Source: Escherichia coli
GTDB taxonomy: Bacteria; Pseudomonadota; Gammaproteobacteria; Enterobacterales; Enterobacteriaceae
Direction: 5' to 3' (one strand)
NCBI RefSeq assembly: GCF_016903815.1
Contig: NZ_CP069973.1
Length of the DNA stretch: 64,000 bases
The notes under the pieces were generated by a model that saw only the letters and a list, made by a program, of their open reading frames with translations, made no database searches and was not told the origin of the DNA. This document shows, piece by piece, positions 29,978 to 47,999 of this stretch (its first letter is position 1; the number at the start of each line of letters is the position of its first letter). A program made the position numbers and the translations under genes.

Positions 29978-30020
29978 GCAAAAACAAATACACCGCATCA
30001 ATGTAACATCTCTGCGGTGT
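29978..30020 (-). terminator. Putative mrp terminator
   Basis: Hairpin ACACCGCA...TGCGGTGT followed by ATTTGTTTTT on the minus strand, 30 nt past the mrp stop. Confidence 0.4.
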
Positions 30021-31160: not shown

Positions 31161-31291
31161 CCCGACTCCTTTTTTGTATAGATAAACCATCAGCTGATAG
31201 TTTACCTGAAGAATATAGAGAAGTACTTACTTAACATTTTTCCATTTGGTACTATCTAACCCCTTTTCACTATTAAGAAGTAATGCCTACT

Positions 31292-33325
31292 ATGACTCAA
31301 GTCGCGAAGAAAATTCTGGTGACGTGCGCACTGCCGTACGCTAACGGCTCAATCCACCTCGGCCATATGCTGGAGCACATCCAGGCTGATGTCTGGGTCC
31401 GTTACCAGCGAATGCGCGGCCACGAGGTCAACTTCATCTGCGCCGACGATGCCCACGGCACACCGATCATGCTGAAAGCTCAGCAGCTCGGTATCACCCC
31501 GGAGCAGATGATTGGCGAAATGAGTCAGGAGCATCAGACTGATTTCGCAGGCTTTAACATCAGCTATGACAACTATCACTCGACGCACAGCGAAGAGAAC
31601 CGCCAGTTGTCAGAACTTATCTACTCTCGCCTGAAAGAAAACGGTTTTATTAAAAACCGCACCATCTCTCAGCTTTACGATCCGGAAAAAGGCATGTTCC
31701 TGCCGGACCGTTTTGTAAAAGGCACCTGCCCGAAATGTAAATCCCCGGATCAATACGGCGATAACTGCGAAGTCTGCGGTGCGACCTACAGCCCGACTGA
31801 ACTGATCGAGCCGAAATCGGTGGTTTCTGGCGCTACCCCGGTAATGCGTGATTCTGAACACTTCTTCTTTGATCTGCCCTCTTTCAGCGAAATGTTGCAG
31901 GCATGGACCCGCAGCGGTGCGTTGCAGGAGCAGGTGGCAAACAAAATGCAGGAGTGGTTTGAATCCGGCCTGCAACAGTGGGATATCTCCCGCGACGCCC
32001 CTTACTTCGGTTTTGAAATTCCGAACGCGCCGGGCAAATATTTCTACGTCTGGCTGGACGCACCGATTGGCTACATGGGTTCCTTCAAGAATCTGTGCGA
32101 CAAACGCGGCAACACCACCAGCTTCGATGAATACTGGAAGAAAGATTCCACCGCCGAGCTGTACCACTTCATCGGTAAAGATATCGTTTACTTCCACAGC
32201 CTGTTCTGGCCTGCCATGCTGGAAGGCAGCAACTTCCGCAAGCCGACTAACCTGTTTGTTCATGGCTATGTGACGGTGAACGGCGCGAAGATGTCCAAGT
32301 CTCGCGGCACCTTTATTAAAGCCAGTACCTGGCTGAATCATTTTGATGCTGACAGCCTGCGTTACTACTACACTGCGAAACTCTCTTCGCGCATTGATGA
32401 TATCGATCTCAACCTGGAAGATTTCGTTCAGCGTGTGAATGCCGATATCGTGAATAAAGTGGTTAACCTGGCATCCCGTAACGCTGGCTTTATCAACAAG
32501 CGTTTTGACGGCGTGCTGGCAAGCGAACTGGCTGACCCGCAGTTGTACAAAACCTTCACGGATGCCGCTGAAGTGATTGGTGAAGCGTGGGAAAGCCGCG
32601 AATTTGGTAAAGCAGTACGCGAAATTATGGCGCTGGCTGATCTGGCTAACCGCTATGTCGATGAACAGGCTCCGTGGGTGGTGGCGAAACAGGAAGGCCG
32701 CGATGCCGACCTGCAGGCAATTTGCTCGATGGGCATCAACCTGTTCCGCGTGCTGATGACTTACCTGAAGCCGGTACTGCCGAAACTGACCGAGCGTGCA
32801 GAAGCATTCCTCAATACAGAACTGACCTGGCATGGTATCCAGCAACCGCTGTTGGGCCATAAAGTGAATCCGTTCAAGGCGCTGTATAACCGCATCGATA
32901 TGAAGCAGGTTGAAGCACTGGTGGAAGCATCTAAAGAAGAAGTAAAAGCCGCTGCCGCGCCGGTAACTGGCCCGCTGGCTGACGATCCAATCCAGGAAAC
33001 TATCACCTTTGATGACTTCGCCAAAGTTGACCTGCGCGTGGCACTGATTGAAAACGCAGAGTTTGTTGAAGGTTCCGACAAACTGCTGCGCCTGACGCTG
33101 GATCTCGGCGGTGAAAAACGCAATGTCTTCTCCGGCATTCGTTCTGCTTACCCGGATCCGCAGGCACTGATTGGTCGTCACACCATTATGGTGGCTAACC
33201 TGGCACCACGTAAAATGCGCTTCGGTATCTCCGAAGGCATGGTGATGGCTGCCGGTCCTGGCGGGAAAGATATTTTCCTGCTAAGCCCGGATGCCGGTGC
33301 TAAACCGGGTCATCAGGTGAAATAA
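31292..33325 (+). CDS. metG: Methionyl-tRNA synthetase
   Basis: 677 aa from [14 protein letters not shown] (HLGH), KMSKS and zinc knuckles CPKC...CEVC. Confidence 0.95.
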
Positions 33326-33334: not shown

Positions 33335-33366
33335 AAGGCGCTGTATCGACAGCGCCTTTTCTTTAT
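33335..33366 (+). terminator. metG intrinsic terminator
   Basis: Hairpin AGGCGCTGT-ATCG-ACAGCGCCT followed by TTTTCTTT. Confidence 0.6.
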
Positions 33367-33465
33367 AAATTCCTAAAGTTGTTTTCTTGCGATTTTGTCT
33401 CTCTCTAACCCGCATAAATACTGGTAGCATCAGCATTCAACTGGATAAAATTACAGGGATGCAGA

Positions 33466-36400
33466 ATGAGGCACTTTATCTTTCAGGACGAAAAATCACA
33501 TAAATTCTGGGCGGTGGAGCAACAGGGAAACGAGTTGCATATCTGTTGGGGAAAAGTTGGCACCAAAGGGCAAAACCAGGTAAAAAGTTTTGCGGATGCT
33601 GCGGCAGCGGCAAAAGCGGAGCTTAAGCTGATCGCAGAGAAAACGAAAAAAGGCTATGTGGAAAATGCTTTAGCAAACGTGCATATCCCCCCCATCACCA
33701 AAGCCACTCCTGAAGTTGAAACCTCCCCTGAGAGTAAAAACAAACGCCCATGGGTGGCTGATGATGCAGTCATTCCGGTAACTGGCGATATTAATCGATT
33801 TGCTTTTCCTCATCGCTCTCGCCCCAGAGAGATCAATTATCTGTACAAAGATGGCCAAATATGGAAGCGCATCGCGAATAACACCAGGGCATATGACCCC
33901 GACAATAATTACCGCTCTTATCCTGAAAACTGGCAGCTGGCGTTTGCCGAGTTACAAAGGCGAATTCTGAATAATCAACAAACAGGAAGTATACAATCTG
34001 ATGCGGCATTGCTCTGGAATTTATGGAACTCTTACTCTACAGATGAACTGGTCGATGACTTAGTCATTCGCTGTGGTCTGGAAACTACCGTTGAAATCGC
34101 CCTTCTCGCTCTTCAACTCAAATATAAACCAGTAAAAGCCGACGTCACCACCATTATTCCCCCTGATCTCAAAGCAGAATCACTACCGAACTGGCATCAA
34201 CGTCTATGTCATCATCTTTCACTCGCTTCAGAAGATGAGTGGCAACGCTGTGTAGATAAAGTTCTCGCTGCTATTCCCTCGCTATCCCCAGCACGGCAAC
34301 CTTTTGCGGCGTTACTGCTCCCTGAACGCCCGGATATTGCCAATGCTATGGCGCTACGTTATGCAGATCAAAACGTTCCGGCGATGACCTGGTTAAGACT
34401 GGTGGTAACCGATGACGCCGCTCTGACTACAGCAGAAAAATACGACTTCCCACCGTTGTATCATGATTTTCGCGCTTATCTGGCAATGTTGCTGGCAAAT
34501 AATGGGGTGCGCGGTGTAAGCCGGATACTTCTTGAGTTTACGGAAGAGCATTCTGACAATCCCACTTATCTCTTCGAGCGCATCAGCGAGACTGAAGATC
34601 TTGTCAAATGGCTATGGAAAACGAATCACCCGGATGCGATTCAAATTCTGATCCTCGGTGTAATTGGCAAGAAAAAGCACCTGGAATACTTAAGCAAAGC
34701 CTGTCAAAAACATCCCGCTGCGGCTCTTGCCGCTTATGCAACTTTACTGGCAATACATGAAGATGCACAGTGGCGTAAAGCGCTTGTCAAACTGATTACC
34801 GCCACGCCAGATTTAGTCACTGACGTCATTCCCTGGGTTAATGCTAAAGCGGCAGGCATCTTATCTGAATGTCGTACTCAGTTAGTCGCTGAAGAATGTG
34901 AATACGCCACTGCGGATATGTTGCCGGAGCTGTTTGTCGCTCCACCGTGGGTAATAAATAAGAAAACGAATGTAATACCCGTATTTGATTTACCGGTGCT
35001 TCCCATCCCTGCAGTCACTGACATCACGCCAGGAATTACAGAGTTAATCAGTCATACTGACATATCCAGATTCAGTGAAATCGCGCAATATCAGTCATCA
35101 CAGCAAACCTTATTTACCGACCTGCCACTAATTGAAAAAGAAAGCTGGGAGACATCTTTCATTCCTTTTACACCAGAACAACAAATCCTTTGGCAATTAG
35201 GTTTTAATGAATGGCTGCATTGCGAAGATGACTTACATGAAAAAAAATATATACCGCAAAGCGCTGTTGATGCCTTGTTGCGCTTTGATTTTCCAGCACT
35301 AAAAGCTGAGTTTGCGAAATATCACAACAATGCCAACAAAAGCTGGAATCTATCTGCGCTTTGTTACTTACCGGGACAACAGGCGATTTCATTTCTCAAC
35401 CAAATAATCATTGAGGAGCGATATTCAGGTGAGAAAGAGATTCTGGCAGTTTTTGGTAGTACGGCCATTCCTGCGTTTATGACCTGCTTGCAACGAGATC
35501 ATCAACGACTGTGGATATTCACCCTCTTTATTGGGGCCAGTGAACTAGCCTTACCAATGGCGCAGCGGTTACAGAAAAAAATGGCTTACAAGGATGCCAT
35601 TAATTGGCTGGCAAATAACCCGCGCCATGCCGCCGCCGGGCTACTGCCTTTGGCGCTGGGCAAACCGTGCCAAAATCGGGAATATGCCCGCCAGGCATTC
35701 CGCCTGCTAGTGAAATTAAACCAGCGAGAAACGATTGAAGAAATCGGCCGGAGATACAACCAACCTGATGTTTTAGCTGCGCTGGCAACATTGTTCGATA
35801 GCGATCCGCTGGAAGAATATCCCGCTAAAATCGCCCCACTGCCCGGCTTTTATCAGTTCACCTTATGGCGCAGACCACGGCTTAAAAGTAACAACCTGCC
35901 TCTGCCAGATGACGCTATGCGCCACCTGGGCACAATGTTGAGCTTTCCACGCGACATTACCTCCTACGCTGGGCTGGCGACCATCAAAGAGACCTTCACC
36001 CACGAATCACTGGCTGACTTTGGCTGGGATCTCTACACGGCATGGACAGAAGCTGGCGCACCCGCAAAAGAAAACTGGGCATTTACTTCGCTTGGGATTT
36101 TAGGCAATGACGACACCGCACGTAAATTAACCCCGCTTATCCGTGCCTGGCCGGGTGAATCCCAGCATAAACGCGCGGTTTACGGGCTGGATGTATTAGC
36201 TGATATTGGCAGCGATGTTGCGCTAATGCTGCTTAATGGCATCGCGCGAAAAATTAAATTCAAAGCATTACAGGAACATGCCCGCGAGAAAATCAACATA
36301 GTTGCTGAAAACCGTGGGCTGACTATGGCTGAACTGGAAGACCGCCTGGCTCCAGATTTAGGGCTTGATAACAGTGGCTCGCTGATACTGGATTTCGGCC

Positions 36401-37263
36401 CACGTCAATTCACCGTTGGTTTTGACGAAACCTTAAAACCTGTAGTGCACGATGCAAACGGCAAAGTCCTGAAAGATTTACCCAAACCAAATCAGAGCGA
36501 TGATCAAACACTGGCAACTGACTCCGTTAACCTCTTCAAACAATTGAAGAAAGATGTGCACGCCATTGCCAGCCAGCAGATTGATCGTCTGGAGCAGGAT
36601 ATGTGCCAGCGCAGACGCTGGACGGCAGAGCAGTTCCGCCTGTTTCTGGTGGAGCATCCGCTGGTACGTCACTTAACCCGACGGGTGTTATGGGGGGTAT
36701 ATACTGAGGAAAACACGCTGATCGCCTGCTTCCGGGTCGCAGAAGACAGCACTTACAGCGATGCGCAGGATGAGTTATTCACGCTGCCAGCAGGAAACAT
36801 CGGTATACCGCATGTGCTGGAAATATCTCCTGAATCCGCCACTGCATTTGGGCAAATTTATGCTGATTACGAAAAGCTTCCTCCCTTTCGCCAACTCGAT
36901 CGTGGTTATTACCACCTTACTGATAATGAACGTGATACCCATGAATTGATACGCTGGCAAGGACGTCTTTGCCAGGCCGGGCGCATTGTCGGGCTGGAAC
37001 GTCGAGGCTGGCAACGTCTGGAAGAAAGCGGCAGCGTCTATGCGATGCGCAAATCTACCCCTTATGGCGCTCTCGAACTTGAAACAGAACATTTTTCATT
37101 AATTTATGGCGAAACGGGGTATAGCGACCTGCTACCTGTTGAAAGCGTAAAAATCACTTCACCAGGGGAACGCTACAGTACACAGCCCTCGCTCACGTTC
37201 TCCGCGCTTGATGCCATCACCGCCAGCGAACTCATTAACGACATCGAATCACTTTTTGATTAA
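33466..37263 (+). CDS. molR: MolR-family giant protein, intact (1265 aa), N-terminal WGR-like module
   Basis: N-terminus HKFWAVEQQGNELHICWGKVGTKGQ resembles the WGR fold; long helical body; first gene after the metG terminator. Confidence 0.8.
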   Translation: MRHFIFQDEKSHKFWAVEQQGNELHICWGKVGTKGQNQVKSFADAAAAAKAELKLIAEKTKKGYVENALANVHIPPITKATPEVETSPESKNKRPWVADDAVIPVTGDINRFAFPHRSRPREINYLYKDGQIWKRIANNTRAYDPDNNYRSYPENWQLAFAELQRRILNNQQTGSIQSDAALLWNLWNSYSTDELVDDLVIRCGLETTVEIALLALQLKYKPVKADVTTIIPPDLKAESLPNWHQRLCHHLSLASEDEWQRCVDKVLAAIPSLSPARQPFAALLLPERPDIANAMALRYADQNVPAMTWLRLVVTDDAALTTAEKYDFPPLYHDFRAYLAMLLANNGVRGVSRILLEFTEEHSDNPTYLFERISETEDLVKWLWKTNHPDAIQILILGVIGKKKHLEYLSKACQKHPAAALAAYATLLAIHEDAQWRKALVKLITATPDLVTDVIPWVNAKAAGILSECRTQLVAEECEYATADMLPELFVAPPWVINKKTNVIPVFDLPVLPIPAVTDITPGITELISHTDISRFSEIAQYQSSQQTLFTDLPLIEKESWETSFIPFTPEQQILWQLGFNEWLHCEDDLHEKKYIPQSAVDALLRFDFPALKAEFAKYHNNANKSWNLSALCYLPGQQAISFLNQIIIEERYSGEKEILAVFGSTAIPAFMTCLQRDHQRLWIFTLFIGASELALPMAQRLQKKMAYKDAINWLANNPRHAAAGLLPLALGKPCQNREYARQAFRLLVKLNQRETIEEIGRRYNQPDVLAALATLFDSDPLEEYPAKIAPLPGFYQFTLWRRPRLKSNNLPLPDDAMRHLGTMLSFPRDITSYAGLATIKETFTHESLADFGWDLYTAWTEAGAPAKENWAFTSLGILGNDDTARKLTPLIRAWPGESQHKRAVYGLDVLADIGSDVALMLLNGIARKIKFKALQEHAREKINIVAENRGLTMAELEDRLAPDLGLDNSGSLILDFGPRQFTVGFDETLKPVVHDANGKVLKDLPKPNQSDDQTLATDSVNLFKQLKKDVHAIASQQIDRLEQDMCQRRRWTAEQFRLFLVEHPLVRHLTRRVLWGVYTEENTLIACFRVAEDSTYSDAQDELFTLPAGNIGIPHVLEISPESATAFGQIYADYEKLPPFRQLDRGYYHLTDNERDTHELIRWQGRLCQAGRIVGLERRGWQRLEESGSVYAMRKSTPYGALELETEHFSLIYGETGYSDLLPVESVKITSPGERYSTQPSLTFSALDAITASELINDIESLFD

Positions 37264-37275
37264 AAGGACTTTGCA

Positions 37276-40200
37276 ATGAAAACCTATATTTATCAGGACG
37301 AAAAATCACATAAATTCTGGGCGGTGGAGCAGCAGGGAAACGAACTGAATATCAGTTGGGGCAAAGTCGGCACCAACGGGCAAAGTCAGGTAAAAAGCTT
37401 TGCAGATGCTGCGGCGGCGGAAAAAGCGGAACTCAAGCTGATTGCGGAGAAAACGAAAAAGGGGTATGTGGAACATGCGGAGAATGCTACATCGAAACAT
37501 ACTCGAACGGTAACGAAATCTCTCGAATTATCTGACTTTTCTACCATCATTCAGGAACAGCCCTCAGTTACACCAGAATTCTACGTGGCTGACAAAAATA
37601 CAGACGTTATTTTACCGTGGCTGGCAAAAGATATTGCTGTCGTTTTTCCGCTTGAAGTCGTACCCACCACCTTAAGCCATCGCCGCTTTCCCGGAGATCC
37701 TGTTACACCTGTAGATAAATTAACCCAGTTACGTCGCTTAGCCTGTGGCGTGTCGCAACGGGATAACAAAACAGCTACATTTGACTTCAGCGCCTGTACT
37801 TTAGAGTGGCAAAACTTCATCGCTCAGGCGATCGATCTGATTAACAGCCCGAAAACGACAAAATTACCATCACCGGTAATGGCTGTACTCGCGGCACTTG
37901 AACTGCACTGCACGAGATATAAAGAGCGTGCGGATGTTATGGATCAGATTATTCAGGAAGGCGGTCTGGAATATGCTACTGATGTAATAATACATCTTCA
38001 ACAAATATCTATTGAATGGGATTATGTCAACAATAATATTGTTTTCCTGTCGTCTGGCATTTCACCTGATTATTTGCAGCAATATTCCAGCTTTGAATTA
38101 CGCCTACGTAAACATTTATCACTGGCGGAAGAGTCTCTCTGGCAAAAATGTGCACAAAAACTTATTGCCGCAGTTCCACATATTCCAGAATGGCGGCAAC
38201 CATTAATTGCTTTGTTATTGCCCGAAAAACCAGAAATTGCACATGAAATTGCCCAGCGTCTACTGGGGCAAAAGAAATTACCCTCGCTGGAGTGGCTAAA
38301 AATAGTGGCGACTGATGAGCACATTCTTGCCTCATTAGAAAAATATCACGAGCCATATGCCATTTTTGATGATTACTATTGTGGTGCGATATGGTCAGCC
38401 ACCGTATTACAGGAGCAAGGTGTTGCGGCCCTGCCCCGATTTGCTCCCTATGTCGCAAGTGACTACTGCGCCGATGTGTTGCGTCATATCAATCATCCGT
38501 TCGCATTAACACTGCTTATACGTGTAGCAGGGCATACTAAACGCTGTCACGATCGAATGACGAAAGCCTGCGCTGCGTTCCCACACGCAGCACTGGCAGC
38601 ACTGGCGGAACTTCTAGTGCAAAAAGAAGAGAATAGTTGGCGCATTATGCTAATGACGATGCTTATCTCGCAACCGACACTAGCAGAACAGGTCATTCCC
38701 TGGCTTTCGACACCCGCAGTTGCAGTGCTGAAATCATGCCAGCAACAACTGACACAGCCCTCAAACCATGCCAGCGCCGATCTACTGCCGGCCATAGTAG
38801 TCTCCCCACCATGGCTTTCGAAAAAGAAAAAATCGCCGATTCCAGTGCTTGATTTAGCACCATTAGGTATTGAGCCAATCAGTTATCTGACAGAAGAAAT
38901 CAGTAATCAACTTTTGGCGAAATATATCTGGTATTCAAAACACATCACGGTTAGTCATGAAGAAAGTACTGCCAATCTGTTGGCAAGGATGGGTTTTCAA
39001 CGACGGATCGCTGGTACATATATTAAAGCTCCCGAAGCGGTAGTTGAGGCATGGCTAAATGAAGATTATTCAACTTTAATAAGTGAATTTAAGGTGTTTC
39101 ATTCACCTACCGGGCATTATTGGCATTTGGGGATTTTGACAACATTGCCGCTGGAGAAAGCAGTAAGAGCATGGAATGCCCTTACTCTATCTCCGCATAC
39201 CGATACCGAATACGCCATGTTACATTTTGGACTCAAAGGATTACCTGGGTTAGTAAACTCACTTGCACGCTATCCACAGGAAGCCTTGCCCATAACGAAT
39301 TACTTCGCAGCGAGTGAGCTGGCACCTGCCGTCGCCCGCGCCTTCAACAAACTCAAAACCCTACGACAAGACGCCCGCACCTGGCTGCTGAAATACCCGG
39401 AACACGCCATTACCGGCCTGCTGTCTGCGGCGCTCGGCAAAGCCGGTGAAGCACAGGATAACGCCCGCGCTGCATTGCGTATGCTTACCGAAAACGGTCA
39501 TCAACCATTACTGCAAGAAATCGCCCGGCGTTATAACCAGCCGGAAGTAACAGATGCGGTGAACGCTATGCTTGCGCTCGATCCCTTAGATAATCACCCG
39601 ACAAAAATCCCCACTCTTCCGGCCTTTTATCAGCCATCGATCTGGACCCGCCCGGTATTAAAAGCAAATGCCCAATCACTGCCCGATAGCGCACTCCAGC
39701 ACCTCGGTGAAATGCTCCGCTTCCATCAGGAGGAGGCGCTGTATCCGGGATTATTGCAGGTGAAAGATGCCTGTACCGCCGACTCACTGGCTGAATTTGC
39801 CTGGGATCTGTTTACCGCCTGGCAGACCGCTGGCGCGCCGTCGAAAGAGAGTTGGGCGTTCACTGCGTTAGGCGTTCTCGGTAACGATGACACCGCCCGC
39901 AAACTGACGCCATTAATACGCGCCTGGCCTGGTGAATCCCAGCATAAACGCGCCACCGTCGGGCTGGATATCCTCGCCGCTATCAGTAGTGATATCGCCC
40001 TGATGCAGCTTAACGGCATTGCCCAGAAACTGAAATTCAAAGCATTACAGGAGCGGGCGAAAGAGAAAATTGCCGACATTGCCGAAAGTCGCGAACTGAC
40101 GGTAGCGGAGCTTGAAGATCGGTTAGCACCGGCTCTCGGTCTGGATGATAACGGTTCGCTGCTGCTGGATTTTGGCCCACGGCAGTTCACCGTCAGCTTT

Positions 40201-41070
40201 GATGAAACCTTAAAACCGTTTGTGCGCGATGTTTCCGGCAGCCGCCTGAAAGACTTACCTAAACCCAATAAAAGCGATGATGAATCACAGGCAAACGATG
40301 CTGTTAACCGCTACAAATTGCTGAAAAAAGATGCGCGTACCGTCGCCGCCCAGCAGGTAGCAAGGCTGGAATCCGCCATGTGCCTGCGCCGCCGCTGGTC
40401 GCCGGAAAACTTTCAGCTCTTCCTGGTTGAGCATCCGCTGGTTCGTCACTTAACCCGCCGTCTGATTTGGGGCGTTTATAGCGCCGAAAACCAGCTACAG
40501 GCGTGCTTTAGGGTGGCGGAAGATAACAGCTACAGCACCGCTGACGATGATCTTTTCACCTTGCAGGAAGGCGATATCTCTGTTGGCATTCCTCACGTTC
40601 TGGAAATATCACCGACGGATGCTGTCGCCTTTGGTCAGCTTTTTGCCGACTACGAACTGCTACCACCGTTCCGTCAGCTTGAACGTAACAGTTACGCCCT
40701 GACAGAAGCCGAGCGCAACGCCAGCGAACTGACCCGCTGGGCAGGCAGAAAATGCCCGAGCGGCCGGGTCATGGGGCTGGCAAATAAAGGCTGGATAAAG
40801 GGCGAACCACAGGATGGAGGCTGGATCGGATGGATGATCAAACCTCTCGGTCGCTGGTCGTTAATCATGGAAATCGACGAAGGTTTTGCGGTGGGTATGT
40901 CACCAGCCGATCTTAGCGCTGAGCAGGTCTTAAGCAAGCTGTGGCTATGGGAAGGCAAAGCGGAAAGCTATGGCTGGGGGAGTAATTCAACTCAGGAAGC
41001 GCAGTTCTCCGTGCTCGACGACATCACCGCCAGCGAACTCATTAACGATATTGAAGCCCTGTTTGAATAA
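37276..41070 (+). CDS. yehI: MolR paralog (1264 aa), N-terminal WGR-like module
   Basis: Collinear homology to molR along its length; near-identical N- and C-terminal ends; 12-nt gap after molR stop with AAGGA RBS. Confidence 0.8.
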   Translation: MKTYIYQDEKSHKFWAVEQQGNELNISWGKVGTNGQSQVKSFADAAAAEKAELKLIAEKTKKGYVEHAENATSKHTRTVTKSLELSDFSTIIQEQPSVTPEFYVADKNTDVILPWLAKDIAVVFPLEVVPTTLSHRRFPGDPVTPVDKLTQLRRLACGVSQRDNKTATFDFSACTLEWQNFIAQAIDLINSPKTTKLPSPVMAVLAALELHCTRYKERADVMDQIIQEGGLEYATDVIIHLQQISIEWDYVNNNIVFLSSGISPDYLQQYSSFELRLRKHLSLAEESLWQKCAQKLIAAVPHIPEWRQPLIALLLPEKPEIAHEIAQRLLGQKKLPSLEWLKIVATDEHILASLEKYHEPYAIFDDYYCGAIWSATVLQEQGVAALPRFAPYVASDYCADVLRHINHPFALTLLIRVAGHTKRCHDRMTKACAAFPHAALAALAELLVQKEENSWRIMLMTMLISQPTLAEQVIPWLSTPAVAVLKSCQQQLTQPSNHASADLLPAIVVSPPWLSKKKKSPIPVLDLAPLGIEPISYLTEEISNQLLAKYIWYSKHITVSHEESTANLLARMGFQRRIAGTYIKAPEAVVEAWLNEDYSTLISEFKVFHSPTGHYWHLGILTTLPLEKAVRAWNALTLSPHTDTEYAMLHFGLKGLPGLVNSLARYPQEALPITNYFAASELAPAVARAFNKLKTLRQDARTWLLKYPEHAITGLLSAALGKAGEAQDNARAALRMLTENGHQPLLQEIARRYNQPEVTDAVNAMLALDPLDNHPTKIPTLPAFYQPSIWTRPVLKANAQSLPDSALQHLGEMLRFHQEEALYPGLLQVKDACTADSLAEFAWDLFTAWQTAGAPSKESWAFTALGVLGNDDTARKLTPLIRAWPGESQHKRATVGLDILAAISSDIALMQLNGIAQKLKFKALQERAKEKIADIAESRELTVAELEDRLAPALGLDDNGSLLLDFGPRQFTVSFDETLKPFVRDVSGSRLKDLPKPNKSDDESQANDAVNRYKLLKKDARTVAAQQVARLESAMCLRRRWSPENFQLFLVEHPLVRHLTRRLIWGVYSAENQLQACFRVAEDNSYSTADDDLFTLQEGDISVGIPHVLEISPTDAVAFGQLFADYELLPPFRQLERNSYALTEAERNASELTRWAGRKCPSGRVMGLANKGWIKGEPQDGGWIGWMIKPLGRWSLIMEIDEGFAVGMSPADLSAEQVLSKLWLWEGKAESYGWGSNSTQEAQFSVLDDITASELINDIEALFE

Positions 41071-41079
41071 GGAAAGAGC

Positions 41080-43278
41080 ATGGACAAGGAATTACCGTGG
41101 CTGGCGGATAACGCCCAAGTGGAACTGAAATATAAAAAAGGCAAAACGCCGCTCAGCCATCGCAGTTGGCCGGGCGAACCGGTGCCTGTTATCACTGAAA
41201 GCCTCATCCAGACACTGGGTGATGAATTGCTACAAAAAGCTGAGAAGAAAAAAAACATTGTCTGGCGTTATGAAAATTTTTCACTGGAGTGGCAGTCGGC
41301 CATTACGCAGGCCATCAACTTGATTGGCGAACACAAACCCTCAGTTCCGGCCCGGACAATGGCGGCGCTAGCCTGTATCGCGCAAAATGATAGCCAACAG
41401 TTGCTCGACGAAATCGTCCAACAAGAGGGACTGGAATATGCGACTGAGGTGGTGATTGCACGCCAGTTTATTACACGATGTTATGAAAGTGATCCTCTGC
41501 TAGTGACATTGCAGTATCAGAACGAGGATTATGGCTATGGTTATCGATCAGAAACCTATAACGAATTCGATCTCCGACTGCGTAAGCATCTCTCTCTGGC
41601 AGAGGAAAGCAGCTGGCAGCGTTGCGCCGACAAACTCATTGCCGCACTGCCAGGAATAACCAAAGTTCGCCGCCCTTTTATTGCTCTGATCCTCCCGGAA
41701 AAACCAGAAATCGCCAATGAGTTGGTAAGCCTTGAATGCCCGTGGACTCATTTTCATTCTAAGGAGTGGTTAAAAGTTGTTGCTATTGACCCCAGAGCGG
41801 TGAGAAAACTCGAACGCTACTGGAGCCAGGATATATTTAGCGATCGGGAAGCCAGCTACATGTCGCATGAAAACCACTTCGGCTACGCGGCCTGCGCTGC
41901 CCTTTTGCGCGAACAAGGACTGGCAGCCGTTCCACGCCTGGCAATGTATGCCCATAAAGAAGATTGCGGCAGTCTGCTGGTACAAATTAACCATCCGCAG
42001 GTCATCCGCACCCTGCTGTTAGTTGCTGATAAAAACAAACCCAGCCTGCAACGTGTAGCTAAATACAGTAAAAATTTCCCCCATGCGACGCTTGCCGCAC
42101 TGGCAGAACTGCTGGCGCTAAAAGAACCACCTACGCGCCCTGGTTATCCAATCATCGAAGACAAAAAGCTGCCTGCACAGCAAAAAGCACGTGATGAATA
42201 CTGGCGTACGCTGTTACAAACGCTGATGGCATCGCAGCCACAACTGGCAGAAGAGGTGATGCCGTGGTTAAGTACTCAAGCCCGGTCAGTGCTGAATAGT
42301 TATTTATCGGCACCGCCTAAAACGGTTATTGATAGCACCGATAACAGCCAAATGCCTGAAATCCTCGTTTCACCACCGTGGCGTAGTAAGAAAAAAATGA
42401 CAGTTCCACGTCTTGATTTGGCACCGTTCGAATTAACGCCGCAAGTTTACTGGCAACCAGGCGAACGAGAGAGGCTTGCCGCCACTGAGTCTGCCCGTTA
42501 TTTCAGCACGGAATCTCTTGCGGAACGCATGGAACATAAAAGTGGACGAGTTGTACTACAGGAGCTGGGTTTTGGAGATGATGTATGGCTGTTTCTGAAT
42601 TATATACTCCCCGGAAAACTGGATGCTGCACGCAATTCACTCATTGTTCAGTGGCATTACTACCAGGGGCGGGTTGAAGAGATCCTGAATGGCTGGAACT
42701 CCCCGGAAGCACAATTAGCAGAACAGGCGCTTCGCAGCGGTCACGTAGAAGTGTTAATTAACATATGGGAAAATGACAGCTACTCACGCTATCGTCGGGA
42801 AAAGAGTATCTGGAACCTGTATTTATTGGCACAGTTGCCGCGTGAGATGGCTTTGACTTTCTGGCTACGTATCAATGAGAAAAAGCATCTGTTCGCGGGT
42901 GAGGACTATTTTCTCAGTATCTTCGGATTGGATGCTCTACCAGGTCTGCTGTTGGCTTTTTCACATCGTCCAAAAGAAACATTTCCGTTAATTTTAAATT
43001 TTGGCGCAACAGAACTGGCCCTGCCCGTTGCCCGCGTCTGGCGACGTTTCGCGGCGCAGCGTGATCTGGCTCGCCAGTGGATTTTACAATGGCCGGAACA
43101 TACGGCTACTGCACTTATCCCTCTTGTCTTCACCAAATCCAGCGATAATAGCGAAGCTGCATTACTTGCCCTACGTTTACTTTACGAACAGGGACATGGT
43201 GAATTGCTGCAAACCGCGGCAAACCGCTGGCAGCGTACAGATGTATGGCCTGCCCCGGTCTGGCAAAACTGGTGCTGA
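41080..43278 (+). CDS. Third MolR/YehI-family paralog (732 aa), no WGR module, ends at TGA
   Basis: Aligns to YehI residues ~100-800 (LPWLA, LRLRKHLSLAEES, PEKPEIA, VSPPW.SKKK blocks); starts 10 nt after yehI stop with AAGGAAAGA RBS; no P-loop. Confidence 0.6.
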   Translation: MDKELPWLADNAQVELKYKKGKTPLSHRSWPGEPVPVITESLIQTLGDELLQKAEKKKNIVWRYENFSLEWQSAITQAINLIGEHKPSVPARTMAALACIAQNDSQQLLDEIVQQEGLEYATEVVIARQFITRCYESDPLLVTLQYQNEDYGYGYRSETYNEFDLRLRKHLSLAEESSWQRCADKLIAALPGITKVRRPFIALILPEKPEIANELVSLECPWTHFHSKEWLKVVAIDPRAVRKLERYWSQDIFSDREASYMSHENHFGYAACAALLREQGLAAVPRLAMYAHKEDCGSLLVQINHPQVIRTLLLVADKNKPSLQRVAKYSKNFPHATLAALAELLALKEPPTRPGYPIIEDKKLPAQQKARDEYWRTLLQTLMASQPQLAEEVMPWLSTQARSVLNSYLSAPPKTVIDSTDNSQMPEILVSPPWRSKKKMTVPRLDLAPFELTPQVYWQPGERERLAATESARYFSTESLAERMEHKSGRVVLQELGFGDDVWLFLNYILPGKLDAARNSLIVQWHYYQGRVEEILNGWNSPEAQLAEQALRSGHVEVLINIWENDSYSRYRREKSIWNLYLLAQLPREMALTFWLRINEKKHLFAGEDYFLSIFGLDALPGLLLAFSHRPKETFPLILNFGATELALPVARVWRRFAAQRDLARQWILQWPEHTATALIPLVFTKSSDNSEAALLALRLLYEQGHGELLQTAANRWQRTDVWPAPVWQNWC

Positions 43279-43332
43279 CAGTGGGGCTTACAGCAGGCGG
43301 GAGAACAACTGCTAAAAACGGTTCTCACCCGT

Positions 43333-44772
43333 TTGCGCCAGCACCACTTGCCTGCTTCGACCGCGGATATGGCTGCCGCTCATCTGCATGCGATGGCGCT
43401 GGCACAGTTGCGCGGACATAAACTACCGTTACGCACTGACTGGCTGGATGCCATAGCAGGCTCGCTGATTAAAGAAGCCCTGAACGCGCCGTTGCCGTGG
43501 AGCTATCGCGGCGTTATTCATCCCGACACCGATCCGATTCTGCTAACGTTGATAGACACATTAGCGGGTGACGGATTCGGTAAACTTGCCCCTTCTACGC
43601 CACAACCGCCTCTGCCAAAAGATGTCACCTGCGAACTGGAACGTACCGCAATCTCTCTTCCGGCGGAGCTTACCTTAAATCGCTTTAACCCCAATGGACT
43701 AGCGCAAAGTCAGGTGTTACATCGGCTGGCAATACTGGAGATCCCAGGGATTGTACGCCAGCAGGGAAGCACACTGACACTTGCAGGCAACGGTGAAGAA
43801 CAGTGGAAATTAACCCGCCCGCTTAGCCAGCATGCGGCATTGATTGAGGCCGCCTGCTTTGGTGCCACACTCCAGGAAGCCGCACGCCATAAATTAGAAG
43901 CCGATATGCTGGACGCGGGTGGAATCGGCAGTATCACCACATGTCTTAGCCAGGCGGCGTTAGCGGGTCTGGCGTCCTTCAGTCAACAATTATTGGAGCA
44001 ACTCACATTATTAATCGCCCAGGAAAATCAATTTGCCGAAATGGGCCAGGCGCTGGAAGTGCTATATGCCTTATGGCGGCTGGATGAAATTAGCGGTATG
44101 CAAGGCGCGCAGATATTACAAACGACGTTATGCGCGGCTATCGATCGCACGCTGTGGCTGTGTGAATCTAACGGCAGACCAGATGAAAAGGAGTTTCACG
44201 CTCACCTGCATAGCTGGCAGGCGCTTTGCCATATCCTGCGCGATCTACATAGCGGCGTTAATTTACCCGGCGTTTCTCTTTCTGCGGCGGTAGCCTTACT
44301 GGACCGCCGCAGTCAAGCGATTCATGCCCCGGCGCTGGATCGCGGCGCGGCTCTTGGCGCACTGATGCGTCTGGAACATCCCAACGCCAGTGCCGAAGCG
44401 GCGCTGACAATGCTGGCGCAGTTATCCCCGGCACAATCCGGCGAAGCGCTGCACGGTTTGCTGGCGCTGGCCCGCCATCAACTGGCCTGTCAGCCGGCAT
44501 TTATCGCCGGTTTCAGTAGTCATTTAAATCAACTGAGTGACGACGATTTTATTAACGCCCTGCCCGATTTACGCGCGGCGATGGCCTGGCTACCACCACG
44601 AGAACGCGGGACGCTGGCGCATCAGGTGCTTGAGCATTATCAACTGGCGCAACTTCCCGTTTCGGCACTGCAAATGCCGTTGCATTGTCCACCACAAGCC
44701 ATTGCACATCATCAACAACTCGAACAGCAGGCACTGGCATCGCTGCAACACTGGGGAGTTTTCCATGTCTGA
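43333..44772 (+). CDS. Ala/Leu-rich protein, start uncertain (TTG 43333 or ATG 43369); same frame as upstream paralog
   Basis: 479-aa ORF unrelated to the MolR C-terminal domain; overlaps yehP start by 8 nt. May correspond to the C-terminal part of K-12 yehM (recollection, unverified). Confidence 0.5.
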   Translation: MRQHHLPASTADMAAAHLHAMALAQLRGHKLPLRTDWLDAIAGSLIKEALNAPLPWSYRGVIHPDTDPILLTLIDTLAGDGFGKLAPSTPQPPLPKDVTCELERTAISLPAELTLNRFNPNGLAQSQVLHRLAILEIPGIVRQQGSTLTLAGNGEEQWKLTRPLSQHAALIEAACFGATLQEAARHKLEADMLDAGGIGSITTCLSQAALAGLASFSQQLLEQLTLLIAQENQFAEMGQALEVLYALWRLDEISGMQGAQILQTTLCAAIDRTLWLCESNGRPDEKEFHAHLHSWQALCHILRDLHSGVNLPGVSLSAAVALLDRRSQAIHAPALDRGAALGALMRLEHPNASAEAALTMLAQLSPAQSGEALHGLLALARHQLACQPAFIAGFSSHLNQLSDDDFINALPDLRAAMAWLPPRERGTLAHQVLEHYQLAQLPVSALQMPLHCPPQAIAHHQQLEQQALASLQHWGVFHV

Positions 44773-45901
44773 ACTGAACGATCTTCTGACCACCCGTGAG
44801 CTACAACGCTGGCGATTAATTCTTGGCGAAGCGGCAGAAACGACGCTTTGTGGGCTGGATGACAACGCCCGGCAGATAGACCACGCGCTGGAGTGGCTGT
44901 ATGGGCGCGATCCTGAACGGCTCCAGCGTGGTGAACGCTCCGGTGGATTAGGTTGCTCAAATCTCACCACCCCTGAGTGGATCAACAGTATTCACACGCT
45001 GTTTCCGCAACAGGTGATTGAACGGCTGGAAAGCGATGCCGTACTGCGCTACGGCATTGAAGATGTGGTGACGAATCTCGACGTGCTGGAACGTATGCAG
45101 CCTTCTGAAAGCCTGCTACGCGCCGTTTTGCACACCAAACATCTGATGAATCCCGAAGTACTGGCTGCCGCCCGCCGGATAGTACGCCAGGTTGTTGAAG
45201 AAATTATGGCGCGACTGGCAAAGGAAGTTCGTCAGGCTTTTTCTGGTGTCCGCGATCGCCGTCGCCGCTCATTTATTCCACTGGCGCGAAACTTTGATTT
45301 CAAAAGTACGCTGCGCGCCAACCTGCAACACTGGCACCCGCAACACGGCAAGTTGTATATCGAATCCCCCCGCTTTAACAGCCGCATTAAACGCCAAAGC
45401 GAACAATGGCAACTGGTCTTACTGGTTGATCAAAGCGGATCAATGGTGGACTCGGTGATCCACTCAGCGGTGATGGCGGCCTGTTTATGGCAGTTACCCG
45501 GTATTCGTACCCATCTGGTGGCGTTTGACACCAGCGTGGTTGATCTCACGGCAGATGTTGCCGATCCGGTAGAGTTATTAATGAAAGTGCAATTAGGCGG
45601 CGGAACCAATATCGCCAGTGCCATGGAATATGGTCGGCAACTTATTGAACAACCAGTGAAAAGCGTCATTATCCTCGTGAGCGATTTTTACGAAGGGGGT
45701 TCATCATCATTACTGACGCATCAGGTGAAAAAGTGTGTCCAGAGCGGCATCAAAGTGCTGGGACTGGCGGCGCTCGATAGCACCGCAACACCTTGCTATG
45801 ACCACGATACGGCCCAGGCGCTGGTTAATGTCGGCGCACAAATAGCCGCCATGACACCGGGCGAGCTGGCATCATGGCTTGCGGAGAATCTTCAGTCATG
45901 A
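44765..45901 (+). CDS. yehP: von Willebrand factor A domain protein
   Basis: 378 aa from MSELNDLL; MIDAS-like DQSGSM...GGTN...SDF. Confidence 0.8.
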   Translation: MSELNDLLTTRELQRWRLILGEAAETTLCGLDDNARQIDHALEWLYGRDPERLQRGERSGGLGCSNLTTPEWINSIHTLFPQQVIERLESDAVLRYGIEDVVTNLDVLERMQPSESLLRAVLHTKHLMNPEVLAAARRIVRQVVEEIMARLAKEVRQAFSGVRDRRRRSFIPLARNFDFKSTLRANLQHWHPQHGKLYIESPRFNSRIKRQSEQWQLVLLVDQSGSMVDSVIHSAVMAACLWQLPGIRTHLVAFDTSVVDLTADVADPVELLMKVQLGGGTNIASAMEYGRQLIEQPVKSVIILVSDFYEGGSSSLLTHQVKKCVQSGIKVLGLAALDSTATPCYDHDTAQALVNVGAQIAAMTPGELASWLAENLQS

Positions 45902-47898
45902 ATTCACTACGTCCGGAATTATTAGAACTGACACCACAAGCTTTGACGGCGTTAAGCAATGCCGGTTTTGTTAAGCGCAGCCTTAAAGAACTGGAAAATG
46001 GCAACGTCCCGGAAATCAGCCATGAGAACGGCGCTTTAATCGCCACCTTCAGTGACGGTGTCCGCACCCAGCTGGCGAACGGTCAGGCACTGAAAGAGGC
46101 TCAGTGCAGCTGCGGGGCCAGCGGCATGTGCCGCCATCGCGTGATGCTGGTTTTAAGTTATCAGCGACTTTGCGCCACCACCCAGCCTACGGAAAAAGAA
46201 GAAGAGTGGGATCCGGCAATCTGGCTGGAAGAACTGGCTACCCTGCCCGATGCCACCCGCAAACGCGCGCAGGCACTGGTCGCTAAAGGTATCACCATTG
46301 AGTTGTTCTGTACGCCGGGCGAAATTCCCTCTGCCCGCTTACCGATGAGCGATGTACGTTTTTATTCCCGCAGCAGCATTCGTTTCGCACGCTGTGATTG
46401 TATTGAAGGAACACTTTGCGAACATGTCGTACTGGCAGTACAGGCCTTTGTCCAGGCCAAAGCGCAGCAAGCGGAATTTACTCATTTAATCTGGCAGATG
46501 CGCAGCGAACACGTCACATCATCTGACGATCCGTTTGCCAACGATGAGGGCGACGCGTGTCGTCAATATGTTCAGCAATTAAGCCAGGCGTTATGGCTTG
46601 GCGGCATCAGCCAGCCGCTTATTCATTACGAGGCTGCTTTCAGCCGCGCGCAGCAAGCGGCGGAACGCTGCAACTGGCGATGGGTGAGTGAATCGCTACG
46701 GCAACTGCGCGCCAGCGTTGATGCCTTCCACGCCCGCGCCAGCCACTATCATGCCGGAGAATGCTTACGTCAGCTTGCGGCATTAAACAGTCGATTAAAT
46801 TGCGCACAAGAGATGGCGCGGCGCGACAGTGTTGGTGAAGTTCCTCCGATGCCGTGGCGCACGGTCGTTGGCGCTGGCATTGCCGGAGAAGCAAAGCTTG
46901 ATCATCTGCGGCTGGTGTCTTTAGGTATGCGTTGCTGGCAGGATATTGAGCAGTATGGTTTACGCATCTGGTTCACCGATCCCGACACCGGCAGTATTTT
47001 GCACCTTTCGCGCAGTTGGCCGCGAAGTGAACAGGAAAACTCACCGGCAGCGACGCGTCGGCTATTTAGTTTTCAGGCTGGCGCACTGGCAGGTGGGCAA
47101 ATTGTTTCACAAGCAGCAAAACGCAGTGCCGATGGCGAGCTGTTGTTAGCTACCCGCAACCGCTTGAGTAGTGTTGTGCCGCTGTCGCCAGACGCCTGGC
47201 AAATGTTGAGCGCGCCATTGCGCCAGCCGGGCATTGTGGCTTTGCGGGAATATTTACGCCAGCGTCCCCCCGCCTGCATACGGCCTCTTAATCAGGTGGA
47301 TAACTTATTTATTCTGCCAGTCGCTGAGTGTATTTCACTCGGTTGGGATAGCAGCCGCCAGACGCTGGATGCGGAGGTAATCAGCGGCGAAGGTGAAGAT
47401 AACGTGCTGACATTATCCCTACCAGCCTCTGCCTGTTCGCCCTTTGCTGTTGAACGCATGGCAGCTCTGTTACAACAAACAGAGGACCCCGTGAGTATGG
47501 TTTCTGGCTTTGTCAGTTTTGTAGAGGGGCAATTGACACTGGAACCACAGGTAATGATGACAAAGACTCGTGCCTGGGCTCTGGACGCAGAAACTACGCC
47601 TGTGGCACCGCTACCTTCTGCCAGCGTTTTGCCTGTGCCGTCTACCGCTCATCAGTTGCTGATGCGCTGCCAGGCGTTACTTATTCAACTGCTCCATAAC
47701 GGCTGGCGCTATCAGGAACAGAGTGCTATTGGTCAGGCAGAGTTGCTGGCGAATGACCTCACCGCGGTGGGTTTTTATCGGCTGGCACATGTGTTGGCAC
47801 AATTTCGTAATACAGAAAGCGAGGCACGGGTAGAAGCAATGAATAACGGTGTTTTGCTTTGCGAACAATTATTCCCCATGCTTCAGCAACAAGGATGA
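45898..47898 (+). CDS. yehQ: SWIM zinc-finger protein, two SWIM motifs
   Basis: ATGA overlap with yehP; CSCGASGMCRHRV and CDCIEGTLCEHVV are both CxCx(n)CxH. Confidence 0.8.
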   Translation: MNSLRPELLELTPQALTALSNAGFVKRSLKELENGNVPEISHENGALIATFSDGVRTQLANGQALKEAQCSCGASGMCRHRVMLVLSYQRLCATTQPTEKEEEWDPAIWLEELATLPDATRKRAQALVAKGITIELFCTPGEIPSARLPMSDVRFYSRSSIRFARCDCIEGTLCEHVVLAVQAFVQAKAQQAEFTHLIWQMRSEHVTSSDDPFANDEGDACRQYVQQLSQALWLGGISQPLIHYEAAFSRAQQAAERCNWRWVSESLRQLRASVDAFHARASHYHAGECLRQLAALNSRLNCAQEMARRDSVGEVPPMPWRTVVGAGIAGEAKLDHLRLVSLGMRCWQDIEQYGLRIWFTDPDTGSILHLSRSWPRSEQENSPAATRRLFSFQAGALAGGQIVSQAAKRSADGELLLATRNRLSSVVPLSPDAWQMLSAPLRQPGIVALREYLRQRPPACIRPLNQVDNLFILPVAECISLGWDSSRQTLDAEVISGEGEDNVLTLSLPASACSPFAVERMAALLQQTEDPVSMVSGFVSFVEGQLTLEPQVMMTKTRAWALDAETTPVAPLPSASVLPVPSTAHQLLMRCQALLIQLLHNGWRYQEQSAIGQAELLANDLTAVGFYRLAHVLAQFRNTESEARVEAMNNGVLLCEQLFPMLQQQG

Positions 47899-47975: not shown

Positions 47976-47999
47976 CCTGGTGAGAGTCACCAGTTTCTT
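47976..47999 (+). terminator. Intrinsic terminator after yehQ
   Basis: Hairpin CTGGTGA-GAG-TCACCAG followed by TTTCTTG. Confidence 0.5.

What the first reader, a model, noticed from the sequence alone, without database searches (positions are those of the whole stretch)
33466..47898. Six-ORF coupled operon: three tandem giant MolR-family paralogs plus VWA and double-SWIM proteins
After the metG terminator, six ORFs run with 10-12 nt gaps or overlapping start/stop codons (12 nt, 10 nt, in-frame TGA, 8-nt overlap, ATGA overlap), which implies co-expression. Two ~1265-aa proteins carry an N-terminal WGR-like module (nucleic-acid or nucleotide sensing in PARP-type proteins); a third paralog lacks it. 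These are joined to a MIDAS-bearing VWA protein and a protein with two SWIM zinc fingers. None has an assigned function that I know of, and molR is, as I recall, a pseudogene in K-12, so this allele may be an intact version of a system degraded in the reference. WGR sensor plus VWA/SWIM interaction modules resembles conflict or stress-surveillance systems more than metabolism.
Basis: partly seen in the sequence, partly recalled or inferred. Interest (0 to 1): 0.8.

Follow-up and report, generated by a model that had tools for sequence, protein, structure and literature searches.

The report
Broken E. coli molR–yeh gene cluster
This is the known but uncharacterised E. coli molR/yeh cluster downstream of metG, and in this strain a 4.9-kb deletion has removed its ATPase motor, so two of the six "genes" are only fragments.

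Summary
The ORFs, their spacing and the WGR, VWA/MIDAS and double-SWIM motifs are real. The region is the E. coli metG-downstream molR/yehI–yehLMPQ locus, 100% identical to strain 222.

- **Deletion.** Compared with intact alleles, about 4,868 bp are missing. The junction shows microhomology at 43243-43255. Lost are the 3' 40% of yehI, yehK, two zor–orz type I toxin–antitoxin modules, the MoxR AAA+ ATPase yehL, and YehM codons 1-254.
- **Fragments.** ORF3 is YehI 1-725, and the 479-aa ORF4 is the C-terminal part of YehM. The deletion put them in frame, but TGG→TGA at invariant YehM W262 closes the frame. RefSeq annotates both as pseudogenes.
- **Frequency.** The junction occurs in 94 of 5,426 complete E. 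coli genomes. Two named carriers are ST405.
- **Intact system.** It comprises one to several WGR–helical repeat–DUF4132 proteins plus YehL, YehM (DUF5682), YehP (VWA) and YehQ (SWIM). It is conserved across Proteobacteria, Myxococcota and Actinobacteria: 46 of 68 loci carry core genes. It matches no PADLOC defence model.
- **Other features.** In E. coli a known LexA box precedes the cluster. YehM's N-terminus is predicted to have a TraB/ChaN/Ere-like fold. The DUF4132 paralogs are old and allelically hypervariable.

Verdict: a known locus, degraded in this strain, with function still unknown.

The parts
33335..33358 (+). metG intrinsic terminator (10-bp GC-rich stem followed by a T run)
   Evidence: sequence
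33439..33458 (+). LexA (SOS) box AACTGGATAAAATTACAGGG, ending 8 nt before the P1 ATG
   Evidence: CTGG-N8-ACAG, 1 mismatch to consensus. The identical box is in K-12, L002 and L004. molR is listed among LexA genes with a known SOS box (PMC6590174).
33466..37263 (+). P1: intact WGR–helical repeat–DUF4132 protein, 1265 aa. This is the extra paralog, present in about 995 of 5,426 genomes.
   Evidence: Pfam WGR at residues 5-67 and DUF4132 at 999-1182. The AF2 model of residues 600-1265 has pLDDT 92.8.
37276..41070 (+). P2: intact WGR–DUF4132 protein, 1264 aa. It is the orthologue of the K-12 molR (yehF+yehH) pseudogene.
   Evidence: It is 92% nt identical to K-12 positions 4475-8270 of L003, and 45% aa identical to P1.
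41080..43278 (+). yehI' pseudogene fragment: YehI codons 1-725 of 1210 (no WGR, DUF4132 lost), then 7 codons of yehM sequence and TGA
   Evidence: Annotated as a pseudogene by RefSeq. It is 97% aa identical to YehI of L002 over the retained part. Reading frames are shown.
43243..43255 (+). Deletion junction with microhomology GTATG(G)CCTGCCC. About 4,868 bp of the intact locus are missing here.
   Evidence: The junction is intact in 94 of 5,426 genomes.
43276..43278 (+). In-frame TGA, from TGG→TGA at YehM W262, which closes the yehI'–'yehM fusion frame
   Evidence: W262 is invariant in 30 YehM homologues.
43256..44772 (+). 'yehM pseudogene fragment: DUF5682 residues ~255-759, the helical C-terminal part only.
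   Evidence: The model places the TraB/ChaN-like domain in the deleted part, residues 1 to ~250.
44765..45901 (+). yehP: intact CoxE-type VWA protein, 378 aa, with MIDAS DQSGS at residues 222-226 (45428-45442)
45898..47898 (+). yehQ: intact protein, 666 aa, with two SWIM zinc-finger motifs (residues 70-80 and 166-176)
47977..47993 (+). Terminator-like hairpin between yehQ and yehR
   Evidence: consensus match only

Best explanation
**What is shown**
- The region is the E. coli molR/yehI–yehLMPQ locus in a deleted state.
- Four genes are intact: two divergent WGR–helical repeat–DUF4132 paralogs, the VWA protein YehP and the double-SWIM protein YehQ.
- Two ORFs are pseudogene fragments. A ~4.87-kb microhomology-mediated deletion fused yehI codon 725 in frame to yehM codon ~255. 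It removed the yehI 3' part, yehK, two zor–orz toxin–antitoxin modules, the MoxR AAA+ ATPase yehL, and the YehM N-terminal domain. A TGG→TGA change seven codons past the junction ends the fused frame.

**What is inferred for the intact system** (about 0.3-0.35 likely in this form)
- YehL forms a MoxR-type AAA+ ring.
- Through the MIDAS of the CoxE-type VWA protein YehP, the ring remodels a complex containing YehM, YehQ and one or more interchangeable WGR–HEAT-like–DUF4132 proteins. YehM would be a TraB/TIKI/ChaN/Ere-like putative hydrolase with a helical scaffold.
- The large DUF4132 proteins are non-enzymatic scaffolds. Their conserved ends (WGR and the C-terminal ~600 aa) dock to nucleic acid and to the machine. 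Their divergent middles give specificity.
- In E. coli the large-protein genes are released from LexA repression on DNA damage, so the system probably acts on damaged or foreign DNA or a linked stress.

**Consequence here.** Without YehL and the YehM N-terminal domain, this strain most likely cannot run the ATP-dependent step.

The confidence value of 0.8 applies to the shown anatomy and the loss of the motor, not to the inferred mechanism.
For: **Locus and deletion**
- The window is 100% identical to strain 222, where RefSeq flags both fragments as pseudogenes.
- The intact reference L002 and K-12 carry yehI (1210 aa), yehK, yehL and yehM (759 aa).
- Breakpoints and microhomology are shown. 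The TGA falls on W262, which is invariant.
- The junction is found in 94 of 5,426 genomes.
- zor–orz is present in L002 and absent from the window.

**Core module**
- Burkholderia and Luteimonas both have AAA_5 + DUF5682 + VWA_CoxE + SWIM + WGR-DUF4132.
- Of 68 loci, 33 have all four core genes and 13 more have one to three, mostly cut off by contig ends.
- YehL defines a named MoxR subfamily, and its closest solved relatives are midasin AAA domains.

**Structure**
- Invariant residues are G8, R10, H11, E35, R175, E176, G199, G200 and H202.
- The P1 C-terminal model has pLDDT 92.8 and gives only HEAT-type repeat matches.

**Regulation and variability**
- The SOS box is shown.
- Tandem arrays of up to 7 paralogs occur in Massilia.
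Against: - No experiment bears on function.
- No complex or interaction was modelled.
- The LexA box was found only in Escherichia. It is absent from Erwinia, Serratia and Edaphovirga, and is not enriched in the 68 loci.
- dN/dS of the paralogs is 0.2-0.3, which is relaxed rather than positive selection.
- The flanks of the two distant loci I inspected are metabolic genes, not defence genes.
- P1, P2, yehP and yehQ remain open, and orphan DUF4132 genes exist in Massilia. Some function without the motor therefore cannot be excluded.
Confidence: 0.8

Rival explanations
1. One reading: the six ORFs as they stand form an intact, co-expressed conflict or surveillance operon, a complete version of what is degraded in K-12.
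For: Tight spacing and overlaps. P1 and P2 are intact whereas K-12 molR is broken. WGR, VWA and SWIM domains are present.
Against: ORF3 and ORF4 are fragments of yehI and yehM. The AAA+ ATPase found in all 33 complete loci is missing. The stop codon falls on an invariant residue. The TTG ORF has no evident ribosome-binding site. K-12 retains yehI through yehQ.
Confidence: 0.04
2. Residual function: the motor is lost, but the SOS-induced WGR–DUF4132 proteins (P1, P2), possibly with YehP and YehQ, still act on their own, for example as DNA-end-binding or scaffold proteins. The deletion would then rewire the locus by placing yehP and yehQ under the LexA-controlled promoter, rather than kill it.
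For: P1, P2, yehP and yehQ are uninterrupted. Orphan DUF4132 genes lie far from any core module in Massilia. Long-term dN/dS of 0.2-0.3 shows the paralogs are kept functional. The allele persists in 94 genomes.
Against: The 94 carriers share an identical junction and look clonal; two named ones are ST405. Persistence may therefore be recent hitch-hiking. In nearly all loci with enough flank the five components stay together.
Confidence: 0.2
3. The intact system is a housekeeping maturation machine. On this view the MoxR–VWA pair inserts a metal or cofactor into, or assembles, a client enzyme, as CoxD–CoxE, NorQ–NorD and the BchI–BchD–BchH or CobS–CobT–CobN chelatases do. This would echo the old 'molybdate metabolism regulator' name. 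The ~1,200-aa proteins would play the part of the large chelatase subunit.
For: YehP is a CoxE-type VWA. YehL gives weak hits to GvpN and MoxR-class ATPases. The three-part layout of a small AAA+, a VWA and a very large protein resembles chelatases (established knowledge). Some records still use the name 'molybdate metabolism regulator' (P0237).
Against: No conserved client enzyme lies next to the cluster, and the flanks differ between taxa. The large proteins are HEAT-type scaffolds with no CobN/BchH match. Variable paralog number, tandem arrays, deep allelic divergence and repeated loss in E. coli lineages are unusual for a housekeeping factor. So is SOS control. The Deinococcus study saw no change in molybdate genes.
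Confidence: 0.12

Closest known systems
YehL subfamily of MoxR AAA+ ATPases with their VWA partners (the E. coli K-12 yehLMPQ locus)
   Same: Same chromosomal locus and the same genes: yehP 97% and yehQ 94% nt identical to K-12. The MoxR literature names the subfamily.
   Different: This allele has no yehL and only the C-terminal two-thirds of yehM. It carries two intact molR-type genes where K-12 has one broken copy. No member of the subfamily has a known function.
Characterised MoxR–VWA pairs: RavA–ViaA, CoxD–CoxE, NorQ–NorD, CbbQ–CbbO, and midasin/Rea1 with its MIDAS domain
   Same: An AAA_5/MoxR ATPase is encoded next to a MIDAS-bearing VWA protein in the intact locus. YehP is of the CoxE type, and YehL's best solved relatives are midasin AAA domains.
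   Different: There are three extra conserved partners (DUF5682, SWIM protein, WGR–DUF4132) and no identifiable client enzyme. Large-protein copy number is variable, and E. coli has an SOS box.
MoxR–vWA 'ternary' conflict systems (VMAP, iSTAND, FtsH and beta-propeller types; Kaur et al. 2020, PMC7159879)
   Same: A CoxD/CoxE-derived MoxR–vWA couple is joined to additional large, diversifying proteins. The proposed logic there is ATP-driven reorganisation of a complex.
   Different: None of the four defining third components is present. That paper does not mention SWIM, WGR, YehL or DUF4132. No recognisable toxic effector domain was found here apart from the putative TraB-like hydrolase.
TraB/PrgY/TIKI/GumN/ChaN/erythromycin-esterase superfamily
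   Different: No sequence-level match was found. Catalytic geometry was not checked. The domain is fused to a ~500-aa helical region and is deleted in this window.

Membership tests
MoxR–VWA system, YehL subfamily | A MoxR-class (AAA_5) ATPase gene in the cluster | tested here: not met
   No yehL in the window; it lies inside the deleted 4.87 kb. It is present in intact alleles and in 33 of 68 related loci with the full core.
MoxR–VWA system, YehL subfamily | An adjacent VWA protein with a MIDAS motif | tested here: met
   yehP at 44765-45901; DQSGS at residues 222-226. Homologues carry VWA_CoxE and VWA_2.
WGR–DUF4132 (MolR) family | An N-terminal WGR domain and a C-terminal DUF4132 domain | tested here: met
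   P1: WGR E 1.1e-17 and DUF4132 E 8.9e-48. P2 is annotated as WGR and DUF4132. ORF3 (yehI') meets neither feature, because YehI has no WGR and the DUF4132 part is deleted.
DUF5682 (YehM) family | Full-length match to PF18934, including the conserved N-terminal domain | tested here: not met
   Intact YehM matches model positions 1-695. The window keeps only residues ~255-759, interrupted by a TGA.
SWIM zinc-finger proteins (YehQ) | The CxCxnCxH signature | tested here: met
   Two signatures at residues 70-80 and 166-176. Pfam SWIM E 9.7e-4 for the first and 0.21 for the second.
LexA (SOS) regulon | A LexA box at the promoter, with LexA binding and damage induction | tested here: inconclusive
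   The box CTGGATAAAATTACAG lies 10 nt upstream of the P1 ATG and is identical in K-12. molR is listed with a known SOS box. Binding and induction in this strain cannot be tested with these tools.
Known anti-phage defence systems (PADLOC-DB v2) | A match of any component to a defence-system model | tested here: not met
   0 hits for all 8 proteins of the window and of the intact locus at E ≤ 0.01.
MoxR–vWA ternary conflict systems (Kaur et al. 2020) | A third core component of VMAP, iSTAND, FtsH or beta-propeller type | tested here: not met
   Pfam, NCBIfam and fold searches found none of these. The paper has no mention of SWIM, WGR or YehL.
AAA+/VWA chelatases (BchIDH, CobNST) | A large subunit homologous to BchH/CobN | tested here: not met
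   The P1 C-terminal model matched only generic helical repeats, with no BchH/CobN among the top 60. YehP's hit to a cobaltochelatase model was far below cut-off (18 vs 779 bits). Only the C-terminal 666 aa of P1 were modelled.
TraB/TIKI/ChaN/Ere-like hydrolases (intact YehM N-terminus) | The shared fold plus conserved His/Glu active-site motifs and hydrolase activity | tested here: inconclusive

The most novel reading that the evidence does not exclude
The intact molR/yehLMPQ cluster, of which this is a broken copy, could be a so far unrecognised class of MoxR–vWA surveillance system. In it, interchangeable and allelically hypervariable WGR–HEAT–DUF4132 proteins would sense damaged or invading DNA. 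A YehL–YehP motor would then activate a TraB/TIKI-like hydrolase (YehM) with the SWIM protein YehQ. In E. coli the sensors would be under SOS control. Natural knock-outs such as this ST405-type deletion, the K-12 molR pseudogene and the ST131 transposon insertion would then be ready-made comparison strains.
Probability: 0.2. Interest if true: 0.75.

Novelty: already known. Interest (0 to 1): 0.35.

Why it matters
- **Annotation.** The region should be read as four genes plus two pseudogene fragments, with the ATPase missing. It should not be presented as an intact novel operon.
- **Biology.** The intact cluster is one of the few LexA-regulon members in E. coli with no known role. Its family is large: 5,789 clusters at 50% identity match the large protein. 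It also travels as a fixed five-part module across phyla. This work supplies testable handles:
  - a putative hydrolase domain with named invariant residues;
  - a conserved docking module in the large proteins, contrasted with their variable middle;
  - natural loss-of-function alleles in clinically important lineages.
- **Limit.** Nothing here shows what the system does.

Tried and rejected
- **PADLOC:** no hit for any component.
- **NCBIfam:** only sub-threshold hits, namely GvpN, MadB and McrB for YehL, and a WGR-only match to a Leptospira family.
- **PDB sequence and profile searches:** nothing for DUF4132, DUF5682 or YehQ.
- **Pfam on the isolated YehM N-terminal domain of 10 homologues:** only DUF5682, with no TraB, ChaN or Ere.
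- **LexA, Cheo and alphaproteobacterial SOS boxes upstream of cluster genes in 68 loci and in Burkholderia and Luteimonas:** no enrichment. SOS control looks specific to Escherichia.
- **Rfam on the window region:** nothing.
- **Literature:**
  - Only 4 papers mention DUF4132 or DUF5682, and none addresses function.
  - No paper links WGR, MoxR and SWIM.
  - The MoxR–vWA conflict paper does not cover this system.
- **Rejected readings:**
  - Recent tandem duplication of the three paralogs: they are only 34-45% identical.
  - Positive selection as the cause of variability: dN/dS is 0.2-0.3 with saturated dS.
  - Assembly artefact: the same junction is in 94 complete genomes.


Full report
**1. 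What is in the sequence**

- 33466-37263, 1265 aa
- 37276-41070, 1264 aa
- 41080-43278, 732 aa
- 43333-44772, 479 aa with a TTG start
- then two overlapping ORFs ending at 45901 and 47898

A strong terminator hairpin follows metG at 33335-33358. The junctions are a 12-nt gap, a 9-nt gap, an in-frame TGA followed by 54 nt, an 8-nt overlap and an ATGA overlap.

P1 has a WGR domain (E 1e-17) and DUF4132 (E 9e-48). YehP has the MIDAS motif DQSGS. YehQ has two CxC..CxH SWIM signatures.

**2. Identity of the locus**

The 15.5-kb stretch is 100% identical to E. coli strain 222 and matches 5,425 of 5,426 complete E. coli genomes. It is the metG-downstream locus: molR (yehF/yehH), yehI, yehK, yehL, yehM, yehP, yehQ, followed by yehR, yehS and btsRS.

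In strain 222, RefSeq annotates ORF3 as "hypothetical protein, missing C-terminus". It annotates the next stretch as "DUF5682 family protein, internal stop, missing N-terminus". Both are flagged as pseudogenes. The annotated starts are 44765 for yehP (378 aa) and 45898 for yehQ (666 aa).

**3. The deletion**

I aligned the window to an intact allele (L002). Window position 43255 corresponds to L002 13221, and window 43256 to L002 18090. About 4,868 bp are therefore absent. The junction lies in the imperfect repeat GTATG(G)CCTGCCC.

The lost segment holds:
- yehI codons 726-1210
- yehK
- two copies of the 29-aa ZorO-type toxin ORF and two OrzO-P antitoxin RNAs (Rfam RF02083; described in PMC2887945)
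- the AAA+ gene yehL
- yehM codons 1-254

The deletion placed yehI and yehM in the same reading frame. Seven codons later, TGG has become TGA (43276-43278). That codon is W262 of YehM, which is invariant in 30 homologues.

The TTG start has no evident ribosome-binding site.

The junction occurs in 94 of 5,426 complete genomes, and the 30 listed carriers are all 100% identical across it. Two carriers, WCHEC96200 and WCHEC4533, are described as ST405. This points to a single event in one lineage.

**4. State of the locus across E. coli**

- The commonest arrangement has one WGR–DUF4132 gene followed by yehI (L004).
- About 995 genomes also carry the extra paralog P1. This is the class with ≥80% query coverage.
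- K-12 has the P2-type gene broken into yehF plus the yehH pseudogene, but keeps yehI through yehQ.
- An ST131 sublineage has a blaCTX-M-15 transposon inserted in the same region (PMC9334617).

So the reference strain and this strain are each degraded, in different parts. This allele is not the intact form.

**5. The paralogs**

P1, P2 and YehI are old paralogs: 45%, 40% and 34% aa identity. The WGR domain and the C-terminal ~600 aa are the conserved parts, at 56-79% identity. The region between them is 17-40% identical.

Alleles of P2 in different strains differ by up to 24% at the protein level. Synonymous divergence is saturated in the first 600 codons (dS 1.1-2.3), and dN/dS is 0.14-0.31.

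For comparison, dN/dS is 0.06 for yehP, 0.07 for yehQ, 0.04 for metG and 0.01 for btsS. Flanking genes are 98-100% identical between strains, whereas the yeh genes are 92-97% identical. The large proteins are therefore functional over the long term, but unusually diverse. I found no evidence of net positive selection.

**6. Conservation of the module**

Homologues of YehM in Burkholderia and Luteimonas sit in clusters of AAA_5, DUF5682, VWA_CoxE, SWIM and WGR–DUF4132 genes. The large gene lies at either end.

A profile-free scan of 1.84 billion representative proteins found 5,789 relatives of the large protein at E ≤ 1e-3. The match was concentrated in the C-terminal ~600 residues.

A scan of species-representative genomes returned 68 loci. 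Searching their ORFs with small HMMs gave these results:
- 33 loci have all of YehL, YehM, YehP and YehQ next to the large gene.
- 13 more have one to three of them, mostly at contig ends.
- 9 full-length loci have none. All are from Massilia, which has tandem arrays of up to seven large genes as well as isolated copies.

The taxa include Enterobacterales, Burkholderiales, Xanthomonadales, Alphaproteobacteria, Myxococcota and Actinobacteria. The loci kept were the 80 best matches to the E. coli protein, so this sample leans towards close relatives. YehK and zor–orz are not part of the conserved module.

**7. What the parts look like**

- **YehL.** It belongs to the MoxR class. It defines the "YehL subfamily" named in the MoxR literature (PMC3893208). 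Its closest solved relatives are midasin AAA domains.
- **YehM.** It was modelled with 30 homologues (pLDDT 84.9).
  - Foldseek ranks a Tetrahymena complex IV chain first, at prob 0.99 and E 0.015. I infer it is the TraB-type subunit seen in the related hits 8b6h_DQ and 8bqs_DQ.
  - The invariant residues G8, R10, H11, E35, R175, E176, G199, G200 and H202 resemble the paired GxxH and Glu pattern of the TIKI/TraB group. That pattern is from my own knowledge and was not tested here.
  - Sequence-profile searches did not find the relationship, so this remains an inference.
- **P1 C-terminal 666 residues.** They model with pLDDT 92.8. They match only HEAT/ARM-type repeats, with a small α/β part and no enzyme fold.

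**8. Regulation**

The sequence AACTGGATAAAATTACAGGG lies just upstream of the P1 start. It is identical in K-12 and in two other lineages. molR is tabulated among LexA-regulated genes with a known SOS box (PMC6590174).

In Deinococcus, a WGR protein and a DUF4132 protein are reported as strongly induced on depletion of the DdrO repressor, which controls the radiation/desiccation response (PMC8533742).

I found no SOS-type boxes upstream of the cluster in Erwinia, Serratia, Edaphovirga, Burkholderia or Luteimonas. There was no enrichment across the 68 loci.

**9. Best reading**

*Shown:* the window holds four intact genes and two pseudogene fragments of a conserved five-component cluster, and the ATPase is missing.

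*Inferred:* in the intact system a YehL ring, coupled through the YehP MIDAS, remodels a complex of YehM, YehQ and one or more interchangeable large scaffold proteins. These large proteins are expressed on DNA damage in E. coli.

The variable number, deep allelic divergence and repeated loss of the large genes fit a surveillance or conflict role better than a housekeeping one. However, no known defence model matches. The cluster is not one of the published MoxR–vWA conflict systems. The neighbours in the two distant loci I inspected are metabolic genes.

A cofactor-maturation role like CoxD–CoxE or the chelatases remains possible but has less support. Some residual function of P1, P2, YehP and YehQ in this strain cannot be excluded.

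**10. Verdict**

- The locus is known and annotated, and its MoxR subfamily is named, so it is not a new discovery.
- Interest is moderate. It rests on the intact system being an unexplained SOS-regulon member with a wide distribution, not on this degraded copy.

Noticed in passing
L002 15098-16116 (intact allele); absent from window 43243-43255: Two zorO/zorP-type 29-aa toxin ORFs (MDTLTQKLTVLIAVLELLVALLRLIDLLK) and two OrzO-P antitoxin RNAs (Rfam RF02083) lie between yehK and yehL in intact alleles. The window's deletion removes both toxin–antitoxin modules, and the window has no other copy.
   Followed up: yes
window 33000-33271 (metG 3' end): The last ~270 nt of metG also match plasmids. 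There were 211 plasmid places in the locus search, for example NZ_CP081792.1 at 95% identity. This may reflect chromosomal flank captured by a transposon, and a blaCTX-M-15 transposon is reported to be inserted in this region in ST131 (PMC9334617).
   Followed up: no
window 45625-45638 (inside yehP): [quoted passage not shown] The GAG→GAA change weakens its Shine-Dalgarno-like element.
   Followed up: partly
L032, L034, L041 (Massilia frigida, M. aquatica, M. rubra): Tandem arrays of five to seven DUF4132 genes, some with and some without WGR, fill whole 20-kb loci. Related arrays end in a single YehL–M–P–Q module (L036, L050, L063).
   Followed up: partly
L035 3171-11968 (Betaproteobacteria bacterium MS502-43): YehP, YehQ and a WGR–DUF4132 gene occur without YehL or YehM. 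An unrelated 537-aa ORF that I did not identify precedes them. This may be another natural loss or replacement of the motor.
   Followed up: no
window 31283-33325 (metG) and 44765-47898: Nucleotide divergence between strains is raised across the whole yeh block and into metG: 94.5% at the metG 3' end against L004 and 94-95% for yehQ. Genes just outside (apbC, yehR, yehS, btsRS) are 98-100% identical.
   Followed up: partly
window 28000-30000: A low-GC stretch (0.36-0.40) corresponds to the yeh fimbrial genes (yehA, yehB and neighbours) upstream of apbC. It is ordinary E. coli core context.
   Followed up: partly
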